Part shown: piece after piece, positions 7,905 through 27,079 of the stretch
Layout of the letters: every line of letters begins with the position of its first letter
Numbering within the stretch: position 1 is the first letter of the stretch
Made by a program: the position numbers and the translations under genes
Notes under the pieces: generated by a model
Told to the model about the DNA's origin: nothing
Seen by the model: the letters and a program-made list of their open reading frames with translations, nothing else
The model's database searches: none
Source of the DNA: a virus
Direction: 5' to 3' (one strand)
Length of the DNA stretch: 64,000 nucleotides
Virus record (IMG/VR): IMGVR_UViG_3300021962_000058
Coordinates: 1-64,000 of that record

Positions 7905-7963
7905 GTGACAGTCTAAAAAGTGGCACAAGGGGCATCCTGGTTCGCTGGGGTGCCCCTTATAAT
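7904..7963 (+). promoter_or_regulatory. box-type promoter with GC hairpin
   Basis: AGTGACAGTC-TAAA-AAGTGGCACA, hairpin AGGGGCATCC...GGGGTGCCCCT, TATAAT 30 nt after the box. Confidence 0.8.
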
Positions 7964-9850: not shown

Positions 9851-9908
9851 GTGACACTTGAATAACTGGCACAAGACCCGCCACACAAGGCGGGTTTTTT
9901 GCTATAAT
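9850..9908 (+). promoter_or_regulatory. box-type promoter overlapping a terminator-like hairpin
   Basis: AGTGACACTT-GAAT-AACTGGCACA; ACCCGCC/GGCGGGT plus T-tract; TGCTATAAT 29 nt after the box. Confidence 0.8.
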
Positions 9909-10695: not shown

Positions 10696-11172
10696 ATGTC
10701 TTACATCACAACTTCTGGATATGGTTATCGCAAACTCCTCTGTGAGGATGTTACCACTTGGTTTCTGAATAAGTTTCTTCCACGTCATAAGATTGATGTA
10801 GAGATTCTACATCGTGGTCTGGTAAGAGAGGGAGTTTATGGGTATTGTGATTTTATTGATGATTACAGGCGTCCAAGAATGTTTTTGATTGAACTTCATA
10901 CTCATATGGAGGAGGAGTTGTATATAAAAACTCTTTTGCACGAACTGACCCATCTGCGTCAGTGGGTGGTCGGTTCACTGCGGTTGCGTCGTGGAAAAAT
11001 GTGTTATGGAAAAGAAAGTGTCGAAGATTATGAGTATTGGTATCAACCACACGAAATAGAGGCAAGAGAACAAGAAGAAACGCTATATCTGGAGTACTTA
11101 TTTGATAAAAATGGGTGGACGGTTCCACAAGTGGCACAGTTCTTTGGTAACCGCTTGTGCTCTGCCGTATAA
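10696..11172 (+). CDS. putative HExxH zinc metallopeptidase
   Basis: TLLHELTHLRQW and downstream PHEIEA motif. Confidence 0.7.
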   Translation: MSYITTSGYGYRKLLCEDVTTWFLNKFLPRHKIDVEILHRGLVREGVYGYCDFIDDYRRPRMFLIELHTHMEEELYIKTLLHELTHLRQWVVGSLRLRRGKMCYGKESVEDYEYWYQPHEIEAREQEETLYLEYLFDKNGWTVPQVAQFFGNRLCSAV

Positions 11173-11173
11173 T
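11115..11173 (+). promoter_or_regulatory. box-type promoter inside 3' end of upstream gene
   Basis: GTGGACGGTT-CCAC-AAGTGGCACA; TATAAT 29 nt after the box. Confidence 0.75.
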
Positions 11174-11701: not shown

Positions 11702-12271
11702 ATGATTGATTCCAGAAAAGTAGCATATTCTAGTGGTGGTGGAGATGAAGCATATACCCCTGCATATGGTGTAACTCCTATTCTCAAATACATCCCCAAA
11801 GATGCAAAGGTGTGGTGTCCATTTGATACCAAAGAGAGTGAGTTTGTCAAGCAGATTGGAGCACAAAATCTAGTCGTCTCCACACACATTTCAACTGGTC
11901 AAGATTTTCTTACTTACATTCCCGACTTTGAGTGGGATGTGATTGTATCTAATCCACCATTCACAAACAAGCGGAAGTTCTTTGAGCGGGCACTGTCTTT
12001 CAACAAACCATTTGCCCTGATTATGACTAACACCTGGTTGAATGATAGTGCTCCTAAGCAATTATTCAAGGATAAGGATCTACAACTGTTGATGTTTGAT
12101 AAGCGAATGAAGTTTCATAGTCCTGATGGACGCCCGAATGATAAGATCACGTTCAGTAGTAGTTACTACTGCTGGAACTTTCTACCAAAACAAATCATTA
12201 TGGAGAAACTGGATGTGCCAGCTTCCAAACTGGCACAACGCAGTCCAAGTGAGGCAGTGCTGCCCCTATAA
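11702..12271 (+). CDS. DNA amino-methyltransferase (N6-A/N4-C)
   Basis: DEAYTP, WCPFD, GQDF and catalytic SNPPF motifs. Confidence 0.85.
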   Translation: MIDSRKVAYSSGGGDEAYTPAYGVTPILKYIPKDAKVWCPFDTKESEFVKQIGAQNLVVSTHISTGQDFLTYIPDFEWDVIVSNPPFTNKRKFFERALSFNKPFALIMTNTWLNDSAPKQLFKDKDLQLLMFDKRMKFHSPDGRPNDKITFSSSYYCWNFLPKQIIMEKLDVPASKLAQRSPSEAVLPL

Positions 12272-12272
12272 T
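12214..12272 (+). promoter_or_regulatory. box-type promoter inside 3' end of MTase gene
   Basis: TGTGCCAGCT-TCCA-AACTGGCACA; TATAAT 29 nt after the box. Confidence 0.8.
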
Positions 12273-15806: not shown

Positions 15807-16022
15807 ATGAAGAATAGAGTTATCTACTATCCTTCATTAATCCTAATCAGTATTGTATCGTTTGCGTTAGGATCAAATGTATACAGAGAGTCAATCATTA
15901 ATGATACTTTGAAACTGTGTAATCAAAAGCAATTAGAGTGTAAGTTCAAGTATGATATGGTGATGTATCAAGAGACAGGTAAAGTACCTTATACTCAACC
16001 TACTAAAGATAAAACCAAATAA
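15807..16022 (+). CDS. small membrane protein
   Basis: N-terminal TM helix; ATG 15807. Confidence 0.6.
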   Translation: MKNRVIYYPSLILISIVSFALGSNVYRESIINDTLKLCNQKQLECKFKYDMVMYQETGKVPYTQPTKDKTK

Positions 16023-16812
16023 AACCTTTCCAGGTATAGCGACCTTTACTTTTTAATGCTTTTGTAAGACCAGTTCCTCTACTATTACCACCAACTTTTC
16101 TAATAGCATCAGCAATACTCTCAAAGTGATATTCTTCCCAAGTTACTTTATTGATAGCTTTAACTGCTTTTTTCTTACTTTTAGTTTCAAGTAATTTCCA
16201 TCTGTAACCATAACACTTATATCCCTTACGAGCAGATAAAAGGATATTGCTATTTTTATTACGGTCACCAGCAACTTCTTCTGCTGCATCACGAGCATTA
16301 TCCCATTCTCTGATTTCACCAGTTTCTATATTCAGTCCTTGTATCTTTATACCACAGTGCTTACCGTTACCTCTATTTTCATCTGTTAAGAATCCCCATG
16401 GTTGATATTTCGCTTTTTCGGTTAAAGTAGTTTTTATATTATTAACCTCTTCATCTGTTCTTTCTCTATTAGATGCTATTTCACTTAATTTTTGTTTTGT
16501 TTCATTACTGAATACTGGACGACTTCCACCGCTTGTTGCATTATAACCTTCTGCACTTTCAAAGGTATTGTATTTTTCTATCCAGTATTGTTCTTTTTCA
16601 TCTAATAAACTTTCATCACATTCATCTATTTCTTTAATCATGAAGTTGTGATTACCATACTTACGCATAGCACGATGTAATGGTTTATCACTCATTCTTA
16701 ATGCTTCTTGTATGTGTTGTTGCCACCTTTTATTCATACCTTGGGTGGTCTGTCCAACATATTTGTGTCCGTTCTGTTTATTGACGATGAGATAGATGAT
16801 TCCTTGGGACAT
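16003..16812 (-). CDS. GIY-YIG homing endonuclease with NUMOD-type C-terminal DNA-binding repeats
   Basis: GIIYLI.N..NG.KYVGQT, R, H, E, GYN; two F/W.S..DA...KG..W repeats; the only long minus-strand gene. Confidence 0.88.
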   Translation of the reverse strand: MSQGIIYLIVNKQNGHKYVGQTTQGMNKRWQQHIQEALRMSDKPLHRAMRKYGNHNFMIKEIDECDESLLDEKEQYWIEKYNTFESAEGYNATSGGSRPVFSNETKQKLSEIASNRERTDEEVNNIKTTLTEKAKYQPWGFLTDENRGNGKHCGIKIQGLNIETGEIREWDNARDAAEEVAGDRNKNSNILLSARKGYKCYGYRWKLLETKSKKKAVKAINKVTWEEYHFESIADAIRKVGGNSRGTGLTKALKSKGRYTWKGFIWFYL

Positions 16813-16991
16813 TTATATTTTAGATAACACTTTTAATATTTTATATATTCTTTATGTTATTTTATATTATTATTTTGGTTAATTTGTGATTAAATATTTT
16901 GTAATTCTCAATAAGGTTTTGTAATTGATAATAAATAACAGGTTTTATTGAGAATAATAAGAAAATGCTGAGTCTTGTTGCAGCCTTTGCC

Positions 16992-17020
16992 AGCGTAGCA
17001 TAAGACACGCAGTTTGTCAA
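16992..17020 (-). promoter_or_regulatory. leftward sigma70 promoter
   Basis: Minus strand TTGACA-17-TACGCT with extended TG. Confidence 0.7.
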
Positions 17021-17060
17021 GTCCACCGCCCGCGAAAATGCCACGAGACCCACACAAAAA

Positions 17061-17345
17061 CTCGACGAGATCCATACTAGACTTATGAGATCTCGACGAG
17101 ACCTTATGTTACGAGATGCACATAATTCTCGACGAGAGTACATATATATTGGTATGATTCTCGACGAGACACACATCTAGACTAGATTGTATCTTGTCGA
17201 GTTTTATGGTATAATACGAAAGCGTTCACACAATCTCGACGAGCTTATGTACGACGATTACGATCTCGACTATACGTATAGTAACGATTATGTAGATCTC
17301 GACGAGGACACATACCACGAGTATGGTATAACGGATCTCGACGAG
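17061..17345. repeat. seven copies of CTCGACGAG (iteron-like array)
   Basis: Exact copies at 17061, 17092, 17128, 17160, 17235, 17298, 17337 plus partial copies. Confidence 0.9.
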
Positions 17346-17402
17346 GATTATGCACGAGATACACAAGATTATAACGATCTTGCGTATCGTCATTATGCAT
17401 GA
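17247..17402 (+). CDS. small Asp/Tyr-rich hypothetical protein
   Basis: MYDDYDLDY...; TGGTATAAT upstream at about 17207-17215; repeats encode DLDE. Confidence 0.5.
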   Translation: MYDDYDLDYTYSNDYVDLDEDTYHEYGITDLDEDYARDTQDYNDLAYRHYA

Positions 17403-17432
17403 TATAATCTAGACACATCGCACTAGACACGT

Positions 17433-17585
17433 ATGTTAGCACAGAAGCGCCTAGTCACAGTCACACTCGACATCATGTGTTATGATGACCTGGATCTAGA
17501 CAATATTAACTGGCGAGATGTATTAGATCTCGAACCCAATGAGGATGTCCATTGTAAGATCCAGGAGCACGATATCGATTGGTAG
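17433..17585 (+). CDS. small acidic hypothetical protein (50 aa)
   Basis: Hand-translated MLAQKRLVTVTLDIMCYDDLD...DIDW. Confidence 0.55.
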   Translation: MLAQKRLVTVTLDIMCYDDLDLDNINWRDVLDLEPNEDVHCKIQEHDIDW

Positions 17586-17609
17586 TGTGCCAGTTTAAAT
17601 ATTGGCACA
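17551..17609 (-). promoter_or_regulatory. leftward box-type promoter
   Basis: Box TGTGCCAGTT-TAAA-TATTGGCACA 17586-17609; minus-strand TACAAT (17551-17556) 29 nt away. Confidence 0.6.
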
Positions 17610-17663
17610 GTACTTCATTCTCAATAAGCAACCCCTTATTGAGAATTCTAATATTTCATAATA

Positions 17664-17727
17664 TTTCAAGGCAGGGGGAGTGGCGATGTATTTTCGTCGG
17701 CAGGGATACCCTTCCCCTCATTGAATT
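17664..17727 (-). ncRNA. candidate leftward non-coding RNA, copy A
   Basis: Follows minus-strand promoter; homologous to 22756-22820; no credible ORF. Confidence 0.5.
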
Positions 17728-17733
17728 TCTTAT

Positions 17734-17830
17734 AAGATAGCAGGCGGCCGACCCCAATTGCAAGGGGTCTTGTGCCAGTTCTTCTAGTGGCACAATGTTG
17801 CCCCAAAGCACCCTGATCGGGGTTTATGTT
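17734..17830. promoter_or_regulatory. bidirectional box-type promoter
   Basis: Box 17771-17794; rightward TATGTT at 30 nt; leftward TTGCAA-18-TATCTT with the -10 at 31 nt. Confidence 0.75.
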
Positions 17831-17854
17831 GGTTTCGTTCAACACAAAACCCCG

Positions 17855-18058
17855 ATGATTTTCATCACTTACCCCGATCACGGTTGTGTATACACTCTGT
17901 CGCAGGAAGATGGGGATGAGTTGTATTATGCTCCAATCTACCAGAACGGTAGTATTAATCTAGAAGAATTTGCACCCGTTGATTTAGATTCAGCAGACAT
18001 GGATCAGATGGAATTGTTTGACATTCGTAACCGCCTGGTGGAGATGTGCCAGATCTAG
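17855..18058 (+). CDS. hypothetical phage protein
   Basis: ATG 17855 follows promoter leader. Confidence 0.7.
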   Translation: MIFITYPDHGCVYTLSQEDGDELYYAPIYQNGSINLEEFAPVDLDSADMDQMELFDIRNRLVEMCQI

Positions 18059-18129
18059 AAGTGGCACACGGGCACTTTACAAGTGCCCTCATCCGTTCTA
18101 CATTACATTCGTTCCTGAGGGATTCACCA

Positions 18130-18258
18130 ATGTTTGATGAGATGTGGCAGGAGATTCAAGATGCTCCTGGTGAGATCTTTGACATTCCCGAACTTCGTGA
18201 TCTGGATGATGACAAGTTCGATTACAATGAGTACATTCTCTCCAACATTGATTACTGA
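18130..18258 (+). CDS. small acidic protein
   Basis: MFDEMWQEIQD...; ATG after promoter. Confidence 0.65.
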   Translation: MFDEMWQEIQDAPGEIFDIPELRDLDDDKFDYNEYILSNIDY

Positions 18259-18259
18259 A

Positions 18260-18409
18260 ATGACCACCACTTCGTTGACATTTGAAGAACTGGATGCCAT
18301 TCTGGCATTGATTGAGTTTCACGATGATTGGGATGAAGTGAGTGAGATCGTGGGGGCAGATGTTCCTGCCCTCTATGAGAAACTGTCCGAAATGCGTGAT
18401 GAGGTCTGA
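18260..18409 (+). CDS. small acidic protein
   Basis: MTTTSLTFEELDAIL... Confidence 0.65.
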   Translation: MTTTSLTFEELDAILALIEFHDDWDEVSEIVGADVPALYEKLSEMRDEV

Positions 18410-18678
18410 TGTACCGCACACTTTCTGAACTTCGTGACTCTATCAATTCAATGATTGAGAGTCAAGGTGAGAACGCTCCCTGTGCTGCATTTGTATTCAC
18501 CAAAGAAGATGTGTTTGAGTATGATGTAGATGACAATGAGGACAAGTATTTTCCTACTGTCTTCACAGAAGATGTGCTCTGTGATGTAGGTGGATCATCT
18601 TACATTTACGAACAGGTAGGTGAGATGATTGATGATGCAATCCGCCTTCGTAAGAAACTCCCACTCTACGCTAACTGA
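18409..18678 (+). CDS. acidic hypothetical protein
   Basis: 89-aa ORF, TGATG coupling. Confidence 0.7.
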   Translation: MYRTLSELRDSINSMIESQGENAPCAAFVFTKEDVFEYDVDDNEDKYFPTVFTEDVLCDVGGSSYIYEQVGEMIDDAIRLRKKLPLYAN

Positions 18679-18866
18679 TGATGAACCGCACTGAACTCCA
18701 GGATCAACTCATTCAGCAGATGTTGGATGACATGGATCTCAAAACAATGACCCAACTTTGTTATGATTATCTGGATGAGGGTTATGCAAAGTATTCTGAT
18801 GAAGAATTGACCGAAGAGGTTAATCAATACTATCCTGAACTGCTGGATGGTGTGACAGTCGACTAA
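18678..18866 (+). CDS. acidic hypothetical protein
   Basis: 62-aa ORF, TGATG coupling. Confidence 0.7.
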   Translation: MMNRTELQDQLIQQMLDDMDLKTMTQLCYDYLDEGYAKYSDEELTEEVNQYYPELLDGVTVD

Positions 18867-18935
18867 GTGGCACAAGGGGGGTTGCAATGCCCCCTGATCT
18901 GGTCCATACTACTCAAGTCAACGCAACCGACCCCA

Positions 18936-19283
18936 ATGCGTAAGATCGAACAGCAAATGAACGCCGCCATTCGTGACTCCCGCGATTGGAAGTCTGGCAA
19001 CACTGAAGTTACTTTTGACTCTGAAACCAATGAGTCGAAAGTGTTCCTGCATGGCAACCACATTGCTACCATCGGTGATGACTTCGTGCAAATCTTTGAT
19101 GGTGGTTGGCAGTCTAACACCACCAAATCCCGCCTGAACGCTATTCTTCAAGATCACGGAATCAAGGGCGAATGTGTATTCCAGCGCAACTGGAATTGGT
19201 TCGTTCATAAGTTCATCGGGCAGGCAGGAACTTCTCCTGTGTTCAACGAACTCGAGTTCACCAACGGATTCGTGTTCGCCTGA
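18936..19283 (+). CDS. conserved phage hypothetical protein
   Basis: MRKIEQQM...V.LHGNHIA...GGWQS.TTKSRLNA; ATG after promoter leader. Confidence 0.8.
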   Translation: MRKIEQQMNAAIRDSRDWKSGNTEVTFDSETNESKVFLHGNHIATIGDDFVQIFDGGWQSNTTKSRLNAILQDHGIKGECVFQRNWNWFVHKFIGQAGTSPVFNELEFTNGFVFA

Positions 19284-19353
19284 CGAACTGGCACATCGGG
19301 TGCCCACACGGCACCCTCACCCCCTATACTACATTCGTTCACACAAAACACCA

Positions 19354-19920
19354 ATGGAAACCTTCCTCGAGACTTCCTTCCAGAACGTTCGTTCTTCCAA
19401 GCGTACTGATGAGTTTCATAAAGTTCTGCTGGATGAGATTCTGAACGCAAATCCTTCGTGGGCAGAGTATGATTGGAAGTTTGAGTATCAACTTCCCGTA
19501 GATGGTTTTGGTGGTACATTTGACATTGACATTGCTGGGTTTAGTAATGGTGAACTTAAGGTTGCTATTCTTGGCAAAGCACTCAACAGCAACATTAACA
19601 AAAACATCAAAAACTACGCTAACACTAGTGTAGGTGAAGCAGCACGTTTGATGTTCGCTCCTGACATTGAGATGGAAAAAGTGCTGTTCGTGAGTGTTCT
19701 TCCCCGTGTGGCACCACGTTTCAACAAAGCGGGTGAAGTTCAGGGTTTCGATGATGTCGTGAGTGCCAAAGAGCGTACCAAGATTAACCACGTTCTGCAA
19801 GCACAATACGATGGTATTGTTGAGGCAATCGACCTGTACTTTGACATTGAAGGTGTAAAGACTCTGCAAGAGTTCAACACCATTAGCATCAACAATCTGG
19901 ACACTCTGACTCTGGTGTGA
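19354..19920 (+). CDS. restriction-endonuclease-like (PD-(D/E)XK fold) protein
   Basis: FDIDIA...VAILGK...N..N.....GEA pattern; ATG after promoter leader. Confidence 0.45.
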   Translation: METFLETSFQNVRSSKRTDEFHKVLLDEILNANPSWAEYDWKFEYQLPVDGFGGTFDIDIAGFSNGELKVAILGKALNSNINKNIKNYANTSVGEAARLMFAPDIEMEKVLFVSVLPRVAPRFNKAGEVQGFDDVVSAKERTKINHVLQAQYDGIVEAIDLYFDIEGVKTLQEFNTISINNLDTLTLV

Positions 19921-20001
19921 CAGTCTGACAAGTGGAACACGGGGGGTTGAGTTCCCCCCTTCTTCGTGCCATACTACGTTCATCAGCAAACAACCCGACC
20001 A

Positions 20002-20250
20002 ATGCAACTCTACATCCTCAAAGAAGTTCTTTACGATTACACTGACGGAATGGCAGTTATCGCTGCTGAATCTATGCCTCAGTGTGAACAGATCTTTATG
20101 GAAGAGTTTGGGTATTTCACTGATCGTAATGGTGAACGGGTGAAGGATGAAAAGGTACAAAAAGAGTTCAACAATGCTAAGGTTACTATCATCGAAAGCG
20201 TAGGACTTGATGAGGCAGGTATTGTAGAATACGTTTACGGTGGGGGTTGA
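20002..20250 (+). CDS. hypothetical phage protein
   Basis: MQLYIL...YVYGGG; ATG after promoter leader. Confidence 0.75.
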   Translation: MQLYILKEVLYDYTDGMAVIAAESMPQCEQIFMEEFGYFTDRNGERVKDEKVQKEFNNAKVTIIESVGLDEAGIVEYVYGGG

Positions 20251-20893
20251 TAATGACACCATCTACCCGTGCAATCGTAACCACAAGAATGGCAACTCAC
20301 ACACAGAATACGCCAGTCAATTCTGAAGCATTTCGTGCTAATGAAACTGATACGATTGGACTGGTAGTTGTTCTCAGTGGTCTTGCTGTTATTTGTCTCT
20401 TCTCTGCTCTGATTGACTGATGACTGATTTTGTTTCTGAATCCGAAGTGAAGCAAATGATGCTCATTGAGGCACTTGAGTATTACATTCAAGGATTGAAA
20501 GATGATAATTGTAATCAGGCAGCGATTGATGCCTTCACCGACCTTTTGACTGAGATTGAGAATGACTAACGAACAAAAGATCCAAGCACTACCCACAATC
20601 CGTACCTTCCCATATACGATTGGTCTCCGTACATACTTCTCGGAAGAAGAATATCAAAAAGCACTCCACGATTTCCTGACTTGGAGAAACCATCAACAGA
20701 GCAAAAGGAACCGCACTAATGATGACTGACACAGACAAAGTAGAAGCACTGAGTGACCTTCTCTCTAATGTCATTCACTCTCTGGAGATGACAAAATATC
20801 TTATTGATGATGCAGATAAAGCATCATCGGTCGTTCGTGAAGCAGACAAGTTTCACCAACAAATGCTGAACATTCTTTACCCTGACGCCTGAA

Positions 20894-21223
20894 ATGATTA
20901 CCGCAACTGAACTGCTGGACTTTCTCACCAAAGCACAAAAAGTTTCTCCTTGTGGAGCAACCTTTCGTCAAACTGATGAAGGTTATAAAATCACTCTGTA
21001 TTGTGATTGGCACGATGATGGCAATAACTATAAACAATCTATTTTCATTGACAACGAAGGTGAATCCACTTGGAATAATGGAGGAGACTATGATTTCTAC
21101 ACAATGGATAACATTTTGGATGAAATGCTTGTGAAACAACAAGAGAAAGAAATCAAAGCACAAAAGCGTAAAGAACTGATTGAATCTCTCACACCAGAGC
21201 AAAGAGAACTGCTGGGGGTGTGA
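20894..21223 (+). CDS. hypothetical phage protein
   Basis: 109 aa, ends LTPEQRELLGV; several sub-60-aa ORFs fill 20253-20890. Confidence 0.75.
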   Translation: MITATELLDFLTKAQKVSPCGATFRQTDEGYKITLYCDWHDDGNNYKQSIFIDNEGESTWNNGGDYDFYTMDNILDEMLVKQQEKEIKAQKRKELIESLTPEQRELLGV

Positions 21224-21301
21224 CAGTTGACCTAGTGGCACACACCCCCTTGTGCTGCCTTCCCATTCGTGCCATACTACGTTCATCAGCAAACAACCAC
21301 G

Positions 21302-22201
21302 ATGCAAAACAAGCACCAAGAGCACCCCGAAGATACCATCCTCACGGGTGATTTGACCGTGCTCGACTGGTTCGTGACACCTGGCACCCTGAGCGTTAAG
21401 ATTGACGGAGCACCCGCAATCGTGTGGGGGATTGATCCTGCGACTGGTACGTTCTTCGTGGGTACAAAAGCAGTATTCAACAAAAAGAAGATTCGTATTG
21501 CACACTCTCACGATGAGATTGACCAACACTATGAAGGCAACGTTGCAGACATTCTGCACACTTGCTTTGACATTCTGCCCCGTACTGAGACAATCTATCA
21601 GGCAGAGTTCATCGGGTTTGGTGGATCTGATGAGTACACTTCCAACCTGATTACGTATCAGTTCCCTGAGATTGTCACTCAAACTATTATCATCGCTCCG
21701 CATACTTGCTATTATGCTGAGAATGATCTGCGTGAGGCAGTAGCGTATCCTGATCGTGCAACTTGGAATGATACTGAAACGGTCAAGTTTGTGAAACCTG
21801 ATGCCTACATTCTGCACGGTCAAGAATCGTTCGCTGATGTAGAAGAAGTGTGCAACTTTGCCCGCCAGATGGCAACCACCTGCCAGTTCGTTTCTAACAC
21901 CGAAGCGGCAAAGATTAAAGTTGCCATTAACGCTTGCATCCGTGAGCAACGTGAGATCGAAGATGATGCATTTGGATGTGATCCTAACCTGATTCGTTTG
22001 TGGAAACTGGTTAAATCTATCAAAGAGGATTGCCTATTCCTGTGCCGCAACAATGGTCCCGCAGCATACATCAAACAGGACCGAATTGATGCGGAAGGTT
22101 ACACAATGACCAATGAGTTTGGTATGTTCAAACTGGTGAAGCGTGAAGTGTTCTCCTACCACAACTTCACCAGCGGACGCTTTCAGTGTACCAGTGCCTG
22201 A
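21302..22201 (+). CDS. conserved T4-like phage protein with ligase/nucleotidyltransferase-like motifs
   Basis: KIDG, YQAEF, EGY and KLVK motifs; ATG 21302 after promoter leader. Confidence 0.65.
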   Translation: MQNKHQEHPEDTILTGDLTVLDWFVTPGTLSVKIDGAPAIVWGIDPATGTFFVGTKAVFNKKKIRIAHSHDEIDQHYEGNVADILHTCFDILPRTETIYQAEFIGFGGSDEYTSNLITYQFPEIVTQTIIIAPHTCYYAENDLREAVAYPDRATWNDTETVKFVKPDAYILHGQESFADVEEVCNFARQMATTCQFVSNTEAAKIKVAINACIREQREIEDDAFGCDPNLIRLWKLVKSIKEDCLFLCRNNGPAAYIKQDRIDAEGYTMTNEFGMFKLVKREVFSYHNFTSGRFQCTSA

Positions 22202-22270
22202 ACCGTCCACCTGAACCCGCAGGGGGGCACTGCTGCCCCCTATACTGATCTCAGTTCACAAGCGAACCCA

Positions 22271-22468
22271 ATGCCTAACACCGCTACCCTGATTGCCATC
22301 GGTGAAATGATCGTTAATGCATCTGAGACGTTGCCTGCAACCACCAATGCAAACATCCGCATTATGCAGGGTGAGAAGTGTGGCGCTGAGATTCTACGTC
22401 TGATCGTTCGTGATAACTTAGGTGGCGCTGCCAATGTTATCACCAATGCCCTTTGGGTCACTCGCTGA
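22271..22468 (+). CDS. hypothetical cassette protein
   Basis: 65 aa between two promoter repeats. Confidence 0.7.
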   Translation: MPNTATLIAIGEMIVNASETLPATTNANIRIMQGEKCGAEILRLIVRDNLGGAANVITNALWVTR

Positions 22469-22535
22469 ACTGGCACAGGGGGGACTGAGATCCCCCCACC
22501 AACCCCCTATACTGACTTCAGTTCAAACGAAACCA

Positions 22536-22697
22536 ATGCAACGCCTTGACGTGATTTGCCCCTCCGCTCCTTGGGAGAACACTACCACCGATGAGGATCG
22601 TGCCTGGGATCTGTGCCTGTCACTCTCTGAGGAATACGGTTACGCTCAGGTTCGCCAGAACGGTATGATCATCGGTGACTACACTGACGGTCGCTGA
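22536..22697 (+). CDS. hypothetical cassette protein
   Basis: MQRLDVICP...; ATG after leader. Confidence 0.7.
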   Translation: MQRLDVICPSAPWENTTTDEDRAWDLCLSLSEEYGYAQVRQNGMIIGDYTDGR

Positions 22698-22704
22698 ATG
22701 ATAC

Positions 22705-22736
22705 AAAAGGGGGAGCACATACGCTCCCTTTTTTTA
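22705..22736. terminator. bidirectional intrinsic terminator
   Basis: AAAAGGGGGAGC-ACATAC-GCTCCCTTTTTTT. Confidence 0.75.
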
Positions 22737-22755
22737 TACTTTTTCTTTTTTTTTA

Positions 22756-22820
22756 TTTCAAGGCTGCCCCCGTGACGACCTTTTTCGTCATCAGGGCTAC
22801 CCCGCCCCTCCTTCGCTTGT
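22756..22820 (-). ncRNA. candidate leftward non-coding RNA, copy B
   Basis: Follows minus-strand TATACT (22827-22832); homologous to 17664-17727. Confidence 0.5.
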
Positions 22821-22826
22821 GACCTT

Positions 22827-22922
22827 AGTATAAGGCCGCGGCAACCCCATACAACCCCCAGTGTGCCACTTTCTGAACTGGCACCCTACCCCCACCATCC
22901 TGCCCACTGCTGCCTCTATACT
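22827..22922. promoter_or_regulatory. bidirectional box-type promoter
   Basis: Box 22862-22885; TATACT 31 nt to the right and 29 nt to the left (minus strand). Confidence 0.8.
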
Positions 22923-22944
22923 GATCTCATCAGCAACGGACCCC

Positions 22945-23124
22945 GTGCAGACCCTCAAAGCAACCGCCATCGCCCTGCTAGTCATCACACTGGCAACCGC
23001 TGGTTACTTTGCTCTGCTTCGCAATGGCAATGCCCGCATCGAAGCGAAGTGCCAGGCATCAGGTGGGCAGGTGCTTGTGACACCTGGTCAAGTGTCCAAA
23101 TGCCTCCTGCCCGCTGCCCGCTGA
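22945..23124 (+). CDS. small membrane/secreted cassette protein
   Basis: GTG start after leader; TM helix followed by C...GG...C. Confidence 0.6.
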   Translation: MQTLKATAIALLVITLATAGYFALLRNGNARIEAKCQASGGQVLVTPGQVSKCLLPAAR

Positions 23125-23157
23125 CCCCTTATACTGATCTCAGTTCACACAACACCG

Positions 23158-23322
23158 ATGAGCACCGCAACCCGCCTCACCGCAAACCAGGCAAAGAGCG
23201 CCATCTACGATCTGGCGGATGACTTCTCATGGGAAACCGTTGCTAAGGAGATGGTCGCCCGCATGAGTGGTGATGAGGCACGGGACTTCCTCGAGGACTT
23301 CCAGCGCCTCTATGCCGACTGA
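23158..23322 (+). CDS. hypothetical cassette protein (54 aa)
   Basis: Hand-translated MSTATRLTANQAKSAIYDLADDF... Confidence 0.7.
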   Translation: MSTATRLTANQAKSAIYDLADDFSWETVAKEMVARMSGDEARDFLEDFQRLYAD

Positions 23323-23393
23323 GGCACTGGCACAAGGGGGGCACAGACCCCCCACCCCGACCCGCTACAATACTCTCACACGCAACCGATCCG

Positions 23394-23567
23394 ATGCGAA
23401 TCGAAGTCCGTTACCAGACCCCCTACAACGCTTGTGAGTGGCGGTCGCAGTGGTTCCCCACGCTGGCAGAGGCAGAGCGTATGGTAGAGTTCTACCGCTC
23501 CTGCGGATCGCCCTCTCACATCGCCCCCAGCAGCATGGCACAGTTCGCTCACCTGATTCCCGACTGA
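23394..23567 (+). CDS. hypothetical cassette protein (57 aa)
   Basis: Hand-translated MRIEVRYQTPY...F.TLAEAERMV.FY; followed by coupled ORFs 23567..23653 and 23650..23817. Confidence 0.7.
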   Translation: MRIEVRYQTPYNACEWRSQWFPTLAEAERMVEFYRSCGSPSHIAPSSMAQFAHLIPD

Positions 23568-23851
23568 TGATCACCGCAGCATTCTTCCTGATCGGTTACA
23601 CTATGGGAGCAGGGCACATCCTGCTCCTGCAACGTATCCTCCGCCACCGATGATCAACACCCTGACCCGCTCACGATCCCCTGAGTTTCACCGCGCCACA
23701 ATGCTCCGCCTGACAATCGCCGCGCTGCTACTCTGGGGGTTCTGGGGTCCACTGTACCCCGTCCGTAGTGTGACAGCAGACGTACTGTCCACTACCGCCG
23801 ACCTCCTGCGTCGCTGACCCCTTATACTGATCTCAGTTCACAAGCGAACCG

Positions 23852-24040
23852 ATGACCCGCACCAACGTCCTGCCCAACGACCTCTGCTCCATCACCCTGA
23901 CTGAGGCACAGTGGAGCACCATCCGCACCGCCGTGCTCTGCCTGGCAGTCGATTGCCGCGTTGCTGGTAAGGGTGCTGACGCAGACTACTACCTGAACGC
24001 CTACAACATCCTGCGGGATGCGATGGGGATGGACGCCTGA
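23852..24040 (+). CDS. hypothetical cassette protein
   Basis: 62 aa between repeats. Confidence 0.7.
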   Translation: MTRTNVLPNDLCSITLTEAQWSTIRTAVLCLAVDCRVAGKGADADYYLNAYNILRDAMGMDA

Positions 24041-24114
24041 GGCACTGGCACACGGGGGGTTCCACCCCCCTACCCTGACCCCTTATACTGATCTCAGTTC
24101 ACACCCGAACCCCA

Positions 24115-24543
24115 ATGACCGTCACTCTCACCGCTTCCTACCGCGACATGCTTGCCGCTGACACTGTAAGCAAGATCGACGAACTCCAGGAGGAGAACTA
24201 CTCCCTGGAGGACATGCTGGAGTTCATTGATACCTACAATGAGAATGATTTTATCGCATACTATGAGGAGTATGTGCGTTGTGGTGAAGCAATCGGTTAC
24301 GATGCTGTTGATGCTCTGATCGATGAAATGGGGTGCGTTTCTGACATTGAAGATTGTGATGAGCGTTTCCAAGGTTGGTATGAAAGTGAGGCAGATTTCG
24401 CTGAGCAGTTCTACTCTGATCTCTACGATGTCCCCTGTGCTCTGGTGATAGATTGGCAGGCAACCTACGATTCCTCCCTGCGTTACGATTTCACCTGCTG
24501 CGAGAAGTCCTACCGTCAGGTGGCAGTGTTTCGGGACTGCTGA
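24115..24543 (+). CDS. ardA: ArdA-like antirestriction (DNA mimic) protein
   Basis: Highly acidic; FQGWYESEADFAEQ...P....IDWQ....SL..DF matches the ArdA C-terminal pattern. Confidence 0.7.
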   Translation: MTVTLTASYRDMLAADTVSKIDELQEENYSLEDMLEFIDTYNENDFIAYYEEYVRCGEAIGYDAVDALIDEMGCVSDIEDCDERFQGWYESEADFAEQFYSDLYDVPCALVIDWQATYDSSLRYDFTCCEKSYRQVAVFRDC

Positions 24544-24629
24544 GGGACAGTTGAGGGGGTGGCACACTGCTGCCCCCACTGCCCCCACTCCTGCCCTTAT
24601 ACTGATCTCAGTTCACACCCGAACCACCA

Positions 24630-24890
24630 ATGGCAACCGCAACCTACCAGACCAACCTCACCGACCGCACCTACAACGGTTGGACTAACTACGAAACCTG
24701 GAACGTTGTGCTCTGGATTGAGAATGATGAGAGCATCTACAACTTCATTCAAGAGAATGACATTTGCTGCTATGAAGAACTGCTGGAAGCATTCTATGAT
24801 CACGGCAGCATTCAGACCCCTGATGGTGTGATGTGGAACGACCCTAAGATCAACCGCGCTGAGATCAACGGCGACGTGTTCGATTCCTAA
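24630..24890 (+). CDS. conserved phage hypothetical protein
   Basis: YNGWTNYETWNV.LWI.N.E motif. Confidence 0.75.
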   Translation: MATATYQTNLTDRTYNGWTNYETWNVVLWIENDESIYNFIQENDICCYEELLEAFYDHGSIQTPDGVMWNDPKINRAEINGDVFDS

Positions 24891-24958
24891 ACTGGCACAA
24901 GGGGGGCACCAACCCCCCATCCTGACCCCTTATACTGATCTCAGTTCAAACGAAACCG

Positions 24959-25129
24959 ATGACCGCTGACCTTGCTGCCTCCCTGCTCAACCGTGCCGCT
25001 AACGGTGCCGAACTGCTGAGCATCCTGGATACGATCGCCAACGACATTGCAGACGCCAACATCGCTGACTGCGCCGCCCATTATGCTCGCATCAGTGCCC
25101 AACCTACCCTGAGCGAAGTCCAGTTCTGA
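24959..25129 (+). CDS. hypothetical cassette protein (56 aa)
   Basis: Hand-translated MTADLAASLLNRAANGAELLSILD... Confidence 0.7.
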   Translation: MTADLAASLLNRAANGAELLSILDTIANDIADANIADCAAHYARISAQPTLSEVQF

Positions 25130-25198
25130 TAGTGGCACAACGGAGGGGGATGACCCTTCCCTTTTGCCTCTATACTGATCTCAGTTCAAACGACCACT

Positions 25199-25405
25199 AT
25201 GTGCCCAATCGACGCCTTTGAGATCCACCTGCAACTGTGTGAGGATCTCTACGATCTGGCAAACGCCATCGCCGCTGAGATGTATGGTTGCGATCTGCAC
25301 CGCCTGGACCCCTCTGAGATCGAATGGTACAATGAGCGGGTGACCGCCGACAATCTGGAGGAGATGGCAAACGACCTTGCCGCTGCCGCTTGGCAGTCCT
25401 ACTGA
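25199..25405 (+). CDS. acidic cassette protein
   Basis: 68 aa between repeats. Confidence 0.7.
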   Translation: MCPIDAFEIHLQLCEDLYDLANAIAAEMYGCDLHRLDPSEIEWYNERVTADNLEEMANDLAAAAWQSY

Positions 25406-25442
25406 TCTGCTACAATACTCTCAGTTCACAAGCAACCGACCC

Positions 25443-25613
25443 GTGTTCATCACCAACGACACTGCTGCCAACGACCCCGCCTGCCAGGCAGCGATGAAAG
25501 CATACGCCGCCCAACTCAAGCGGGAGGAGGAGCGCCGCCAGCAGATCCTGGCAGGCACCTACATCCCCTGCCCTGTCCAATCTACGGTCTGGCACATCAG
25601 CGACCGCGACTGA
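25443..25613 (+). CDS. hypothetical cassette protein
   Basis: GTG start after leader. Confidence 0.6.
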   Translation: MFITNDTAANDPACQAAMKAYAAQLKREEERRQQILAGTYIPCPVQSTVWHISDRD

Positions 25614-25655
25614 CCCCACCGACCGACTAGGATACTCTCAGTTCAAACGAAACCA

Positions 25656-25841
25656 ATGACCACCACTCAGAACCTCCGCTCCCTGATCGCTCACACCCTG
25701 ACTGAGATCGACCGTGAGTTTCACGGTTGGACCTTTACCGCTGATGACTTCGCTGGTGAGTCGATCCACGATCTGCGGGAGTTCTGCTACCGCCACCACT
25801 CCCCCATCGTTCGGGCACTGCCCACGACGGTGATGATCTGA
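25656..25841 (+). CDS. hypothetical cassette protein
   Basis: 61 aa between repeats. Confidence 0.7.
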   Translation: MTTTQNLRSLIAHTLTEIDREFHGWTFTADDFAGESIHDLREFCYRHHSPIVRALPTTVMI

Positions 25842-25894
25842 GGGGTCCGCCCCTTTATCTGCTACAATACTCTCAGTTCACAAGCAACCGACCG

Positions 25895-26095
25895 ATGACC
25901 CGCCCCAACCTGGAAACCGAACTGATCAACGCCCTGAATGATCTCACCCCAGCAGAGCGCCAGGCATTGGCCGCGGCAACCCCTGCCGACTGGGCTGAGG
26001 CAGGTGCTGAAGTTCTGAATGACCCCACCTTCTGGGGTGAGATCGCTGCCGCTTTTGCTGAGGGTTTCACACGCGGTTTTGAGAATCGCCGCTGA
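25895..26095 (+). CDS. hypothetical cassette protein
   Basis: 66 aa between repeats. Confidence 0.7.
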   Translation: MTRPNLETELINALNDLTPAERQALAAATPADWAEAGAEVLNDPTFWGEIAAAFAEGFTRGFENRR

Positions 26096-26146
26096 TCTGA
26101 CCCGCTGATCTGCTACAATACTCTCAGTTCAAACGACCCCAGACCG

Positions 26147-26347
26147 ATGACCGAAGCATACGCGATCTTCACCACTGGCACCGACTACTACGACCGCCCC
26201 GAACTGTTCGGACTCTATGTTTCCGCTGAGAAGGCAGAGGCAGAGGCAGCGGTGCTCCGCGAGCGCCTGGAGGATCCCGACTGTGCAGAATTCGAAGGGC
26301 AGCGCCTCTACGATCAGGTGACCGTGACCTACGTTCCGATCCGCTGA
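26147..26347 (+). CDS. hypothetical cassette protein
   Basis: 66 aa between repeats. Confidence 0.7.
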   Translation: MTEAYAIFTTGTDYYDRPELFGLYVSAEKAEAEAAVLRERLEDPDCAEFEGQRLYDQVTVTYVPIR

Positions 26348-26415
26348 GATCCGATGGGGGGTTGACCGATCGCCCCCCTACCCTCTACAATTCTCTCAGT
26401 TCACAACCCGAACCG

Positions 26416-26604
26416 ATGAACGACACCTTCGCTCAGATCCTCTGGAACGCCACCAACCCTGAGACTGGTACGATCCGATTCTCCACCGCCGCTCAGGCAG
26501 CAAAGGAACATGGTCTGTGGGATGACTTCCGCAGCGACTATGCCACCCTCTCTCAGTTCGGCGGTGTTGATACTGGTGAGTTCCTGGAGTGGTTGGGGTA
26601 TTGA
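26416..26604 (+). CDS. hypothetical cassette protein
   Basis: ATG after TTGACC-18-TACAAT promoter. Confidence 0.7.
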   Translation: MNDTFAQILWNATNPETGTIRFSTAAQAAKEHGLWDDFRSDYATLSQFGGVDTGEFLEWLGY

Positions 26605-26654
26605 CCCCTGCCCCCTGATGCCTTACAATTCTCTCAGTTCACACCCCACCGATC

Positions 26655-26840
26655 ATGGCAATCTACTCCGCCTGCTCCAACCTTGAAACCCGCGAAACCA
26701 TGTGGGTTGCACGCAAGACTGATGACGCCCCCCAGTACACGTTCGCTGGTCAGATCAACCCCGTAGAGGGTTGGTGGTTGGCAGGTGTCTCCGCCGATCG
26801 CTACGCTTCGGACGTGGTGGCACCCCAGTGGGAGGGGTGA
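26655..26840 (+). CDS. hypothetical cassette protein
   Basis: ATG after TTGACC-17-TACAAT promoter (26601-26629). Confidence 0.7.
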   Translation: MAIYSACSNLETRETMWVARKTDDAPQYTFAGQINPVEGWWLAGVSADRYASDVVAPQWEG

Positions 26841-26928
26841 CCCCCCATCCTAGCACACGGGCAGTGGGTGCGTGGGATGCAGGTCCCCCGCCGCCCGCCC
26901 CGTGCGGTCGCGGCGCGTGATGGGGGGT
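26840..26928. other. very GC-rich fold-back element closing the cassette array
   Basis: ACCCCCCATC pairs with GATGGGGGGT, enclosing about 70 nt of GC-rich non-coding sequence. Confidence 0.55.
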
Positions 26929-27079
26929 TGTTATAAAAACCCCTAACTACCCTAACCTACAAAGTGTTACGGACGCGAGAGAAATATCAGACTCATTAAA
27001 CATCGAAAATCAAAAAATTTTTCGCCAATAAAAAGTTCTCATAAGGTTGATATATAAAAAATAAAAAAATATCAAAAGA

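What the first reader, a model, noticed from the sequence alone, without database searches (positions are those of the whole stretch)
17771..26840. One-gene-one-promoter cassette array built from a repeated regulatory module
Seen: about 22 units in 9 kb, mostly [box][G-run/C-run hairpin][-10][GTTCA leader][one 45-140 aa ORF]. Near-identical tracts link the units: TATACTGATCTCAGTTCA x7, ATCTGCTACAATACTCTCAGTTCA x3 (near 25406, 25858, 26109) and a 33-bp identity TTCGTGCCATACTACGTTCATCAGCAAACAACC before both 20002 and 21302. The ORFs are unrelated to each other. Known: repeated promoter-stem-loop cassettes (PeSLs) mediate modular gene shuffling in some T4-type coliphages. Inference: recombination between the repeats excises, duplicates and swaps single-gene cassettes, giving an integron-like reservoir of host-takeover/anti-defence genes. 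No recombinase gene is visible in this window.
Basis: partly seen in the sequence, partly recalled or inferred. Interest (0 to 1): 0.82.

Follow-up and report, generated by a model that had tools for sequence, protein, structure and literature searches.

The report
Cyanophage early-gene promoter cassette array
A T4-like virus of cyanobacteria carries about 32 tiny early genes in 22 units that each start with the same promoter module, and comparison with related viruses shows single genes gained or lost by crossovers inside those modules, as already known for T4-type coliphages.

Summary
Window 17.8-26.9 kb has 22 promoter modules heading 32 unrelated small ORFs, and every quoted repeat is exact. 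The window is part of a 91-kb IMG/VR contig of a T4-like cyanomyovirus (Kyanoviridae). The array is the GC-rich hyperplastic early region upstream of baseplate genes gp25/gp6.

The same module occurs in more than 119 viral contigs and in cultured phage S-PM2. Its parts are a 22-bp dyad box, a G-run/C-run hairpin in place of a -35, a -10 hexamer, a conserved leader and the start codon. The box ends 30-32 nt before the -10. Boxed promoters almost never carry a -35 or an extended -10; unboxed ones often do. The box is therefore a promoter element.

Gene order differs greatly between relatives. Three cassette gain/loss junctions (g15, g23, g29) switch parent exactly inside the shared -10/leader repeat of 13-32 nt. 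This is the PeSL mechanism in a cyanophage version. It is not integron-like: no integrase was found and every cassette has its own promoter. Some indels lie outside modules.

This scan met the same promoter type on other genomes. I could not check whether the box was published in 2016 (Doron et al., not held).

The parts
17586..17609 (.). Dyad box just outside the array. A leftward -10 (TACAAT) lies 30 nt from its left arm.
17615..17734 (-). Candidate small RNA, copy X1. It is transcribed leftward from the bidirectional box at 17772-17793 (-10 TATCTT, 32 nt from the box).
17771..18058 (+). Unit 1: bidirectional dyad box 17772-17793, C-run/G-run hairpin, -10 at 17825, g1 (17855-18058).
18046..18866 (+). 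Unit 2: dyad box 18046-18067 straddling the g1 stop, hairpin, -10 at 18099, operon g2-g5.
18852..19283 (+). Unit 3: dyad box straddling the g5 stop, G6/C5 hairpin, -10 at 18905, g6 (Kyano_Gp96, PF23790).
19284..19920 (+). Unit 4: right half-box at 19289, hairpin, -10 at 19325, g7 (phrog_21547).
19917..21223 (+). Unit 5: box variant (TGGAAC), G6/C6 hairpin 19941-19959, -10 near 19971, operon g8-g13. The 33-nt repeat starts at 19963.
21220..22201 (+). Unit 6: dyad box straddling the g13 stop, -10 near 21274, g14 (DUF6267). The 33-nt repeat starts at 21266.
22202..22468 (+). Unit 7: G6/C5 hairpin, -10 at 22241, g15. The cassette is flanked by a 13-nt direct repeat (22236 and 22503). It is absent from L095, whose junction switches parent inside that repeat.
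22469..22697 (+). Unit 8: half-box at 22471, G6/C6 hairpin, -10 at 22508, g16.
22705..22734 (.). Bidirectional intrinsic terminator. It ends unit 8 on the + strand and the leftward RNA X2 on the - strand.
22700..22824 (-). Candidate small RNA, copy X2. It is transcribed leftward from the bidirectional box 22863-22884 (-10 TATACT, 30 nt from the box). It contains a covarying 5-bp stem.
22863..23124 (+). Unit 9: bidirectional dyad box, -10 at 22917, g17 (small hydrophobic protein).
23125..23322 (+). Unit 10: short module whose box variant (TGTCCA) lies inside the g17 coding end, -10 at 23130, g18.
23323..23817 (+). Unit 11: half-box at 23328, G6/C6 hairpin, -10 at 23366, operon g19-g21.
23818..24040 (+). 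Unit 12: short module whose box variant lies inside the g21 coding end, -10 at 23823, g22.
24041..24543 (+). Unit 13: half-box at 24046, hairpin, -10 at 24084, g23 (ArdA-like anti-restriction protein, phrog_36653). It is flanked by 32-nt exact direct repeats (24080 and 24594). It is absent at this site in L071/L075 and sits elsewhere in L095, L082 and L119.
24544..24890 (+). Unit 14: box at 24560, -10 at 24598, g24 (DUF7249).
24891..25129 (+). Unit 15: box at 24893, G6/C6 hairpin, -10 at 24931, g25.
25130..25405 (+). Unit 16: box at 25133, hairpin, -10 at 25171, g26. It is absent from L095, where g25 joins g27 through one module.
25406..25613 (+). Unit 17: no box, extended -10 (TG before the hexamer at 25411), g27.
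25590..25841 (+). Unit 18: half-box inside the g27 coding end, 32 nt before a -10 at 25628, g28.
25842..26095 (+). Unit 19: no box, extended -10 at 25863, g29. It is flanked by 24-nt exact repeats (25857 and 26108). It is absent from L115, whose junction matches the left parent on one side of the repeat and the right parent on the other in the printed alignment.
26096..26347 (+). Unit 20: no box, extended -10 at 26114, g30.
26348..26604 (+). Unit 21: no box, -35-like TTGACC at 26362, -10 at 26386, g31.
26601..26840 (+). Unit 22: no box, -35-like TTGACC at 26601, -10 at 26624, g32.
26841..26935 (+). GC-rich fold-back at the right edge of the array (-65 kcal/mol, z -2.45). ARAGORN calls it tRNA-Cys, but Rfam gives no tRNA match at E<=1.

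Best explanation
The array is the early-gene hyperplastic region of a T4-like cyanophage.

Each unit starts with a composite module. The module has five parts: a 22-bp dyad box that often overlaps the stop codon of the gene before it; a GC hairpin where a -35 would sit; a -10 hexamer 30-32 nt after the box; a conserved stretch around the predicted transcription start with a short leader lacking a Shine-Dalgarno sequence; and the start codon.

Inferred: host RNA polymerase starts at each module. At boxed modules it is helped by a dimeric factor bound to the box. The hairpin damps read-through from the unit before.

Neighbouring modules share exact repeats of 13-37 nt. Homology-driven exchange (T4-type recombination or replication slippage) between two modules removes, inserts or swaps the cassette between them and leaves one chimeric but working promoter. 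Shown: the repeats, the fixed geometry, the spread of the module in the family, and three parent-switching junctions. Inferred: promoter and terminator activity, the factor that binds the box, and the enzymology of exchange.
For: 1. Repeats are exact and absent from shuffles. Modules share 13-37 nt of exact identity.
2. The array lies upstream of gp25/gp6 as in S-PM2. Both flanks are conserved in L075.
3. The 18-mer occurs in more than 119 IMG/VR contigs including S-PM2. S-PM2 has at least 10 such modules at 21.5-24.8 kb.
4. At 1342 TGGCAC sites, a TAnnnT hexamer follows at offsets 30/31/32 in 145/204/108 cases, against about 12 at other offsets. The left arm is conserved, with C at position -12 in 99% of 98 modules.
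5. A -35-like TTGA or an extended -10 occurs in 3/91 boxed and 77/190 unboxed modules (p=1.5e-12).
6. The spacer folds at -9.7 kcal/mol against -5.0 when shuffled.
7. Homology ends fall in module spacers 65% of the time, although spacers are 21% of the length. Gene adjacency is fluid: g14 occurs in 60 loci and is never followed by g15.
8. Junctions L095 g14|g16, L071 g22|g24 and L115 g28|g30 switch parent inside the shared core. A g17-like cassette in L095 is flanked by direct repeats of at least 33 nt.
Against: Most hairpins lack a U-tract and are not canonical terminators.

Breakpoints also occur at promoter-less gene junctions, with 4x enrichment per base. The g9-g13 block and a 159-nt ORF in L095 are not module-bounded.

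The one spontaneous deletion watched in a cultured cyanophage, S-PM2d, joined coding DNA at a 7-nt microhomology.

The comparison contigs are metagenome assemblies, so repeats of 24-32 nt could in principle mislead an assembler. The 13-nt case is too short for that.

Modules are related by descent, so the Fisher test overstates independence.
Confidence: 0.72

Rival explanations
1. The modules are only conserved early promoters kept alike by selection for expression. Cassette turnover comes from illegitimate or microhomology recombination anywhere, and selection then keeps only events that leave genes intact. The repeats have no special role.
For: Promoter-less gene junctions are breakpoints too. 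g3, g5 and g21 never have their own promoter, yet their neighbours change. The g9-g13 insertion and the extra ORF in L095 are outside modules. The S-PM2d deletion used 7 nt of microhomology in coding DNA. An earlier scan note on another genome reached this view (e1-5882366).
Against: Three junctions switch parent exactly within the shared 13-32 nt. A fourth cassette is flanked by repeats of at least 33 nt. Module junctions collect about 2.8 times more homology ends per junction than tight junctions. T4-type recombination is reported to need under 50 bp of homology (PMC2839356 discussion).
Confidence: 0.2
2. This is an integron-like system: a dedicated site-specific recombinase recognises the box or hairpin and moves single-gene cassettes.
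For: The dyad box and the GC hairpin are conserved, symmetric and sit at cassette borders. Only about 42% of the genome is in hand.
Against: No Phage_integrase or Resolvase match in the 91-kb record. Crossovers map to the -10/leader core, not the box or hairpin. The g28|g30 junction involves box-less modules. The box is phased to the -10 on either strand and is mutually exclusive with -35 or extended -10 elements, which points to transcription. Each cassette has its own promoter, unlike integron cassettes.
Confidence: 0.04
3. Assembly artefact: a GC-rich block from another organism was joined into a low-GC phage contig, with repeats created or collapsed by the assembler.
For: GC jumps from about 35% in the flanks to as much as 60% inside. 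The contig is metagenomic.
Against: The same GC-rich island between low-GC flanks is seen in dozens of independent contigs and in the cultured phage S-PM2. Both flanks of the array are colinear with L075.
Confidence: 0.02

Closest known systems
PeSLs (promoter-early stem-loops) and PmSLs of T4-type phages RB49/phi1, T4/PST and KVP40/nt-1 (Arbiol et al. 2010, PMC2839356; Comeau et al. 2014, PMC4122927)
   Same: Both are repeated intergenic promoter-plus-stem-loop cassettes, and RB49/phi1 stems are also polyG...polyC. Both are concentrated in hyperplastic regions of small unknown genes. Indels between relatives are bounded by the elements, with crossovers between the -10 and the ATG. No dedicated recombinase is known. 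The nt-1 PmSLs likewise pair an activator box with a -10.
   Different: There is no -35, no AT-rich upstream tract and no Shine-Dalgarno sequence. A 22-bp dyad box sits at a fixed 30-32 nt from the -10. The region is GC-rich inside an AT-rich genome. The start-site and leader sequence is hyperconserved. Mini-circles and promoter/terminator activity, which were shown for RB49/phi1, are untested here. I found no paper in the held library that describes PeSLs in cyanophages; Puxty et al. 2015 (PMC4503421) considered and dismissed them for the S-PM2 ORFanage.
Early-gene promoter element of T4-like cyanophages (Doron et al. 2016, ISME J 10:1437; recalled from memory and from earlier scan notes, paper not held)
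   Same: Probably the same upstream element. It is shared by S-PM2, P-SSM2, Syn9 and many uncultured Kyanoviridae.
   Different: I could not read the paper, so identity of the motif is unverified. Nothing I could read says whether it addresses the cassette-exchange junctions.
Integron gene cassettes
   Same: Arrays of single, unrelated small genes that can be gained and lost.
   Different: No IntI and no attC. Every cassette has its own promoter. Exchange maps to plain sequence homology.
CGRE1 / PlmA-type GntR site before host yfr2 sRNA genes (Lambrecht et al. 2018, PMC6191309)
   Same: Both are dyads of about 22 bp upstream of -10-type promoters, including sRNA promoters.
   Different: As published, CGRE1 starts at -55 to -57, has GTTG/GTTA flanks and a central GTG(T)ACAC. 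The phage box spans about -65 to -44 and has other arms. There are no phage-type boxed promoters in five picocyanobacterial genomes.

Membership tests
PeSL (promoter-early stem-loop cassettes of T4-type phages) | [quoted passage not shown] | tested here: met
   22 modules of 33-86 nt lie between stop and start.
PeSL (promoter-early stem-loop cassettes of T4-type phages) | Sigma-70-type -10 hexamer | tested here: met
   TAnnnT-type hexamers (CATACT before g6, g8 and g14) lie 23-33 nt before each start codon. T1, A2 and T6 are kept across variants.
PeSL (promoter-early stem-loop cassettes of T4-type phages) | Consensus -35 hexamer with an AT-rich upstream tract | tested here: not met
   Only the g2, g31 and g32 modules pass a -35/-10 scan. 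Boxed modules have TTGA at -35 in 2/91 cases. The upstream DNA is GC-rich.
PeSL (promoter-early stem-loop cassettes of T4-type phages) | Stable stem-loop, often polyG...polyC, within or beside the promoter | tested here: met
   G5-6/C5-6 hairpins lie between box and -10. Mean MFE is -9.7 against -5.0 kcal/mol when shuffled, over 98 modules.
PeSL (promoter-early stem-loop cassettes of T4-type phages) | Shine-Dalgarno sequence at the 3' end | tested here: not met
   Leaders are A/C-rich with no GGAG-like motif.
PeSL (promoter-early stem-loop cassettes of T4-type phages) | Concentrated in hyperplastic regions of a T4-like genome | tested here: met
   The array lies upstream of gp25/gp6, as does S-PM2 p063-p243. 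Adjacency is highly variable.
PeSL (promoter-early stem-loop cassettes of T4-type phages) | Indels or replacements between relatives bounded by the elements, leaving a chimeric element | tested here: met
   Junctions g14|g16, g22|g24 and g28|g30. 65% of homology ends fall in modules. The rule is not exclusive.
PeSL (promoter-early stem-loop cassettes of T4-type phages) | Measured promoter and terminator activity; mini-circle formation | not testable with these tools
This needs wet-lab work or raw reads.
Integron | IntI tyrosine recombinase next to the array | tested here: not met
   No PF00589 or PF00239 match in the 91-kb record, which is about 42% complete.
Integron | Promoter-less cassettes with attC sites read from one common promoter | tested here: not met
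   Each unit has its own -10 and leader.
CGRE1 (PlmA/PMM1637 site of yfr2 promoters) | 21-22-nt palindrome starting at -55 to -57 with GTTG/GTTA flanks | tested here: not met
   By the published text, arms and position differ. There are 0 phage-type sites in five picocyanobacterial genomes. The logo itself could not be seen.
Cyanophage early-promoter element (Doron et al. 2016) | Motif upstream of mapped early transcription starts in Syn9 | not testable with these tools
   The paper is not held. Syn9 has 17 phased sites against 2 in the control.

The most novel reading that the evidence does not exclude
The dyad box is the operator of a still unidentified dimeric activator, either a phage immediate-early product or a host factor. 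That would give Kyanoviridae, which lack MotA/AsiA, a two-tier early programme. Box-less promoters with a -35 or an extended -10 would fire first. Boxed, -35-less promoters would follow, including two leftward small RNAs driven by the same bidirectional boxes. The same modules would double as the homology patches that shuffle the early-gene pool across the family.
Probability: 0.3. Interest if true: 0.7.

Novelty: new member of a known kind. Interest (0 to 1): 0.5.

Why it matters
T4-like cyanophages are among the most abundant viruses in the sea and in lakes. Their small early genes, which include the anti-restriction gene here, probably decide which hosts they can take over.

If these genes sit in self-expressing cassettes that are swapped at promoter repeats, that gives a concrete mechanism for how the accessory gene pool is shared across the family.

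The phased dyad box also makes an old open question testable: how cyanomyoviruses time early and middle transcription without MotA/AsiA. It could be tested by pull-down or by reporter assays with and without the box.

Tried and rejected
- Rfam: no family matches anywhere in the array, at gathering threshold or at E<=1. The ARAGORN tRNA-Cys at 26842-26927 is therefore treated as a false call.
- Pfam/PHROG on 20 ORFs: only family names of unknown function, plus one ArdA-like hit. No DNA-binding candidate for the box emerged.
- Host-regulator lead from earlier scan notes (PlmA/CGRE1): the published description does not fit the arms or the position. Five picocyanobacterial genomes hold no phage-type boxed promoter. 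The lead is left unverified, not disproved.
- Doron et al. 2016 could not be read by DOI or PMC id.
- S-PM2d deletion endpoints, checked as a possible real-time example: they are not in modules.
- Comparing module junctions with tight junctions by gene adjacency did not separate the two classes.
- Recent foreign origin of the GC-rich block: rejected, because the GC island is family-wide.

Full report
**What the window is.** The window is the first 64 kb of a 91-kb IMG/VR viral record estimated to be 42% complete. Nucleotide matches go only to T4-like cyanomyoviruses: S-SRM01, P-SSM2, P-SSM5, S-PM2 and S-H9-1. The stretch just downstream matches S-SRM01 over its baseplate wedge genes. In S-PM2 the homologous small-gene region (p063-p243) lies directly upstream of gp25/gp6. 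The finding is therefore the hyperplastic early-type region upstream of the baseplate module of a member of the Kyanoviridae.

**The observation.** All three quoted repeats are exact and none occurs in shuffled sequence. I read 32 + strand ORFs of 28-299 aa (g1-g32). They are headed by 22 intergenic modules. Three units are operons: g2-g5, g8-g13 and g19-g21. No two ORFs are related at blastp E<1e-3. Named families are:
- Kyano_Gp96 (g6), DUF6267 (g14) and DUF7249 (g24);
- an ArdA-like anti-restriction PHROG (g23);
- several PHROGs of unknown function.

**Anatomy of the module.** Reading 5' to 3':
- A 22-bp dyad box, consensus GTG(C/A)C(A/G)-N8-A(C/G)TGGCAC. Its left arm or loop often contains the stop codon of the preceding gene.
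- A 30-32-nt spacer that usually forms a G-run/C-run hairpin.
- A -10 hexamer (TATACT, TACAAT or CATACT).
- A conserved CTCAGTTCA around the predicted start.
- An A/C-rich leader of about 20 nt without a Shine-Dalgarno sequence, then the start codon.

Only three modules pass a classical -35/-10 scan. Canonical intrinsic terminators exist only at 17617-17646 and 22705-22734, with two weaker terminator-like hairpins at 19941 and 25142.

**The module is family-wide.** The exact 18-mer occurs in more than 119 IMG/VR contigs, among them S-PM2. S-PM2 has at least ten such modules at 21.5-24.8 kb. Nearly all g-genes have homologues in these contigs. The GC-rich island (0.50-0.60) between low-GC flanks (0.30-0.42) recurs in dozens of contigs and in S-PM2. 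It is therefore a lineage trait, not a recent import or a misassembly.

**The box is a promoter element.** Four lines of evidence support this:
1. Over all loci there are 1342 TGGCAC sites. A TAnnnT hexamer follows at offsets 30, 31 and 32 in 145, 204 and 108 cases, against about 12 at other offsets. A control word shows no such peak.
2. In 98 distinct boxed modules the left arm is conserved, with C at -12 in 99%.
3. The box works in both directions. The dyads at 17772 and 22863 also have a -10 at 30-32 nt on the minus strand, and so does the dyad at 17587.
4. Among 332 distinct modules, a -35-like TTGA or an extended -10 occurs in 3 of 91 boxed and 77 of 190 unboxed modules (Fisher p=1.5e-12). 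This fits a box that replaces those elements. The modules are related by descent, so the p value is generous.

The phased pattern is found genome-wide, compared with a reversed-pattern control:
- own record: 22 against 0;
- S-PM2: 12 against 0;
- P-SSM2: 19 against 2, with a cluster at 54-69 kb;
- Syn9: 17 against 2.

**Cassette turnover.** Gene adjacency is very fluid. Homologues of g14 occur in 60 loci and are never followed by g15; they are followed by g2 (11 loci), g19 (7) or g16 (6). Of 758 homology ends from 99 loci:
- 65% fall in module spacers, which are 21% of the length;
- 11% fall at promoter-less gene junctions, which are 2.7% of the length;
- 24% fall in coding DNA, which is 76% of the length.

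Modules share exact repeats of up to 37 nt. Three junctions are decisive:
- In L095, g14 is joined to g16. The junction follows the window's g14-g15 module up to a shared 13-mer and the g15-g16 module from there on.
- In L071/L075, g22 is joined to g24, and the switch lies inside a 32-nt repeat. This removes the ArdA-like g23, which sits elsewhere in other genomes.
- In L115, g28 is joined to g30. In the printed alignment the junction matches the g28-side module up to the shared 24-mer and the g30-side module from it onward.

In L095 a g17-like cassette is itself flanked by direct repeats of at least 33 nt. Of about ten structural differences between the window and L095, at least five end in the -10/leader core.

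**Limits.**
- Two differences are clearly outside modules: a 159-nt ORF between g3 and g4 in L095, and the g9-g13 block inserted straight after the g8 stop.
- Promoter-less junctions also break.
- The spontaneous 9.5-kb deletion of S-PM2d (PMC4503421) joins coding DNA at a 7-nt microhomology, not at modules.
- The modules are therefore favoured exchange sites, not the only ones.
- The comparison contigs are assemblies. No reads could be examined.

**Comparison with known systems.**
- PeSLs were defined in RB49/phi1 and extended to T4/PST and KVP40/nt-1 (PMC2839356, PMC4122927). The features met here are: a repeated stop-to-start element, a -10, a polyG/polyC stem-loop, a location in a hyperplastic region, and chimeric junctions.
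- The features not met are: a -35 with an AT-rich tract, and a Shine-Dalgarno sequence.
- The nt-1 PmSLs, which pair a Mot box with a -10, are the nearest analogue of the boxed form.
- I found no paper in the held library that describes PeSLs in cyanophages.
- Integron membership fails. There is no integrase and each cassette has its own promoter.

**Earlier notes of this scan.** Notes on other genomes report the same promoter type. They recall that Doron et al. 2016 described it, and they propose the host regulator PlmA. I could not read that paper. The published CGRE1 description does not match the arms or the position of this box. Five picocyanobacterial genomes hold no phage-type boxed promoter.

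**Side result.** Each of the two bidirectional boxes also drives a leftward unit of about 120 nt. It is conserved in 41 aligned copies. It contains a 5-bp stem that is paired in 100% of cells, with compensatory changes in 4 of 5 pairs (covariation 0.43 against 0.13 in shuffles, 0 of 500 shuffles as high). The closing G-U pair fits the minus strand only. It matches no Rfam family.

**Verdict.** I rate it a new member of a known kind, of moderate interest.

Noticed in passing
window 22700-22824 (-) and 17615-17734 (-): Two homologous leftward units of about 120 nt are driven by the bidirectional dyad boxes. X2 ends at the bidirectional terminator at 22705-22734; X1 runs into the 17617-17646 hairpin, which has no U-run on the minus strand. 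41 copies aligned. A 5-bp stem is paired in every copy, with compensatory changes in 4 of 5 pairs, and a G-U closing pair fits the minus strand. No Rfam match. Candidate cyanophage small RNA family.
   Followed up: partly
window 17000-27000 and loci L016, L025, L075, L083, L102, L127: The early-gene region is a GC-rich island (0.50-0.65) with a ramp, set in 0.30-0.42 GC flanks. This holds in dozens of cyanophage contigs and in S-PM2. My unverified guess is that early genes are tuned to host codon use before the phage tRNAs are made.
   Followed up: partly
window 7905-7963, 9851-9908, 11132-11173, 12215-12272; G000 86764-86805, 88986-89027: The same dyad box, phased 30-31 nt before a TATAAT hexamer, heads genes outside the array in low-GC DNA. 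Some copies have a full terminator hairpin in the spacer, and the leader consensus differs.
   Followed up: partly
window 26842-26927: ARAGORN calls an 86-nt tRNA-Cys here, but Rfam finds no tRNA at E<=1. The stretch is a long GC-rich fold-back (-65 kcal/mol) at the sharp GC cliff that ends the array.
   Followed up: yes
L128 (S-PM2 record 22974-23770): S-PM2 has modules with downstream ATG starts at about 23243, 23483 and 23769. The record annotates no + strand gene there, and one minus-strand gene (p074). Small early genes are probably missed or called on the wrong strand.
   Followed up: no
window 23110-23130, 23803-23823, 24064-24084, 24911-24931: The module segment just before the -10 contains TGA. 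In short modules this TGA is the stop codon of the upstream gene (g17, g21). In full modules the same letters are non-coding. The module can thus supply a stop to whatever ORF is fused to it.
   Followed up: no
window 16813-17609: Minus-strand genes (16003-16812, 16862-17176) lie left of the array, and a leftward boxed promoter at 17551-17592 points toward them. L095 carries a similar repeat tract next to its g23-like gene.
   Followed up: no
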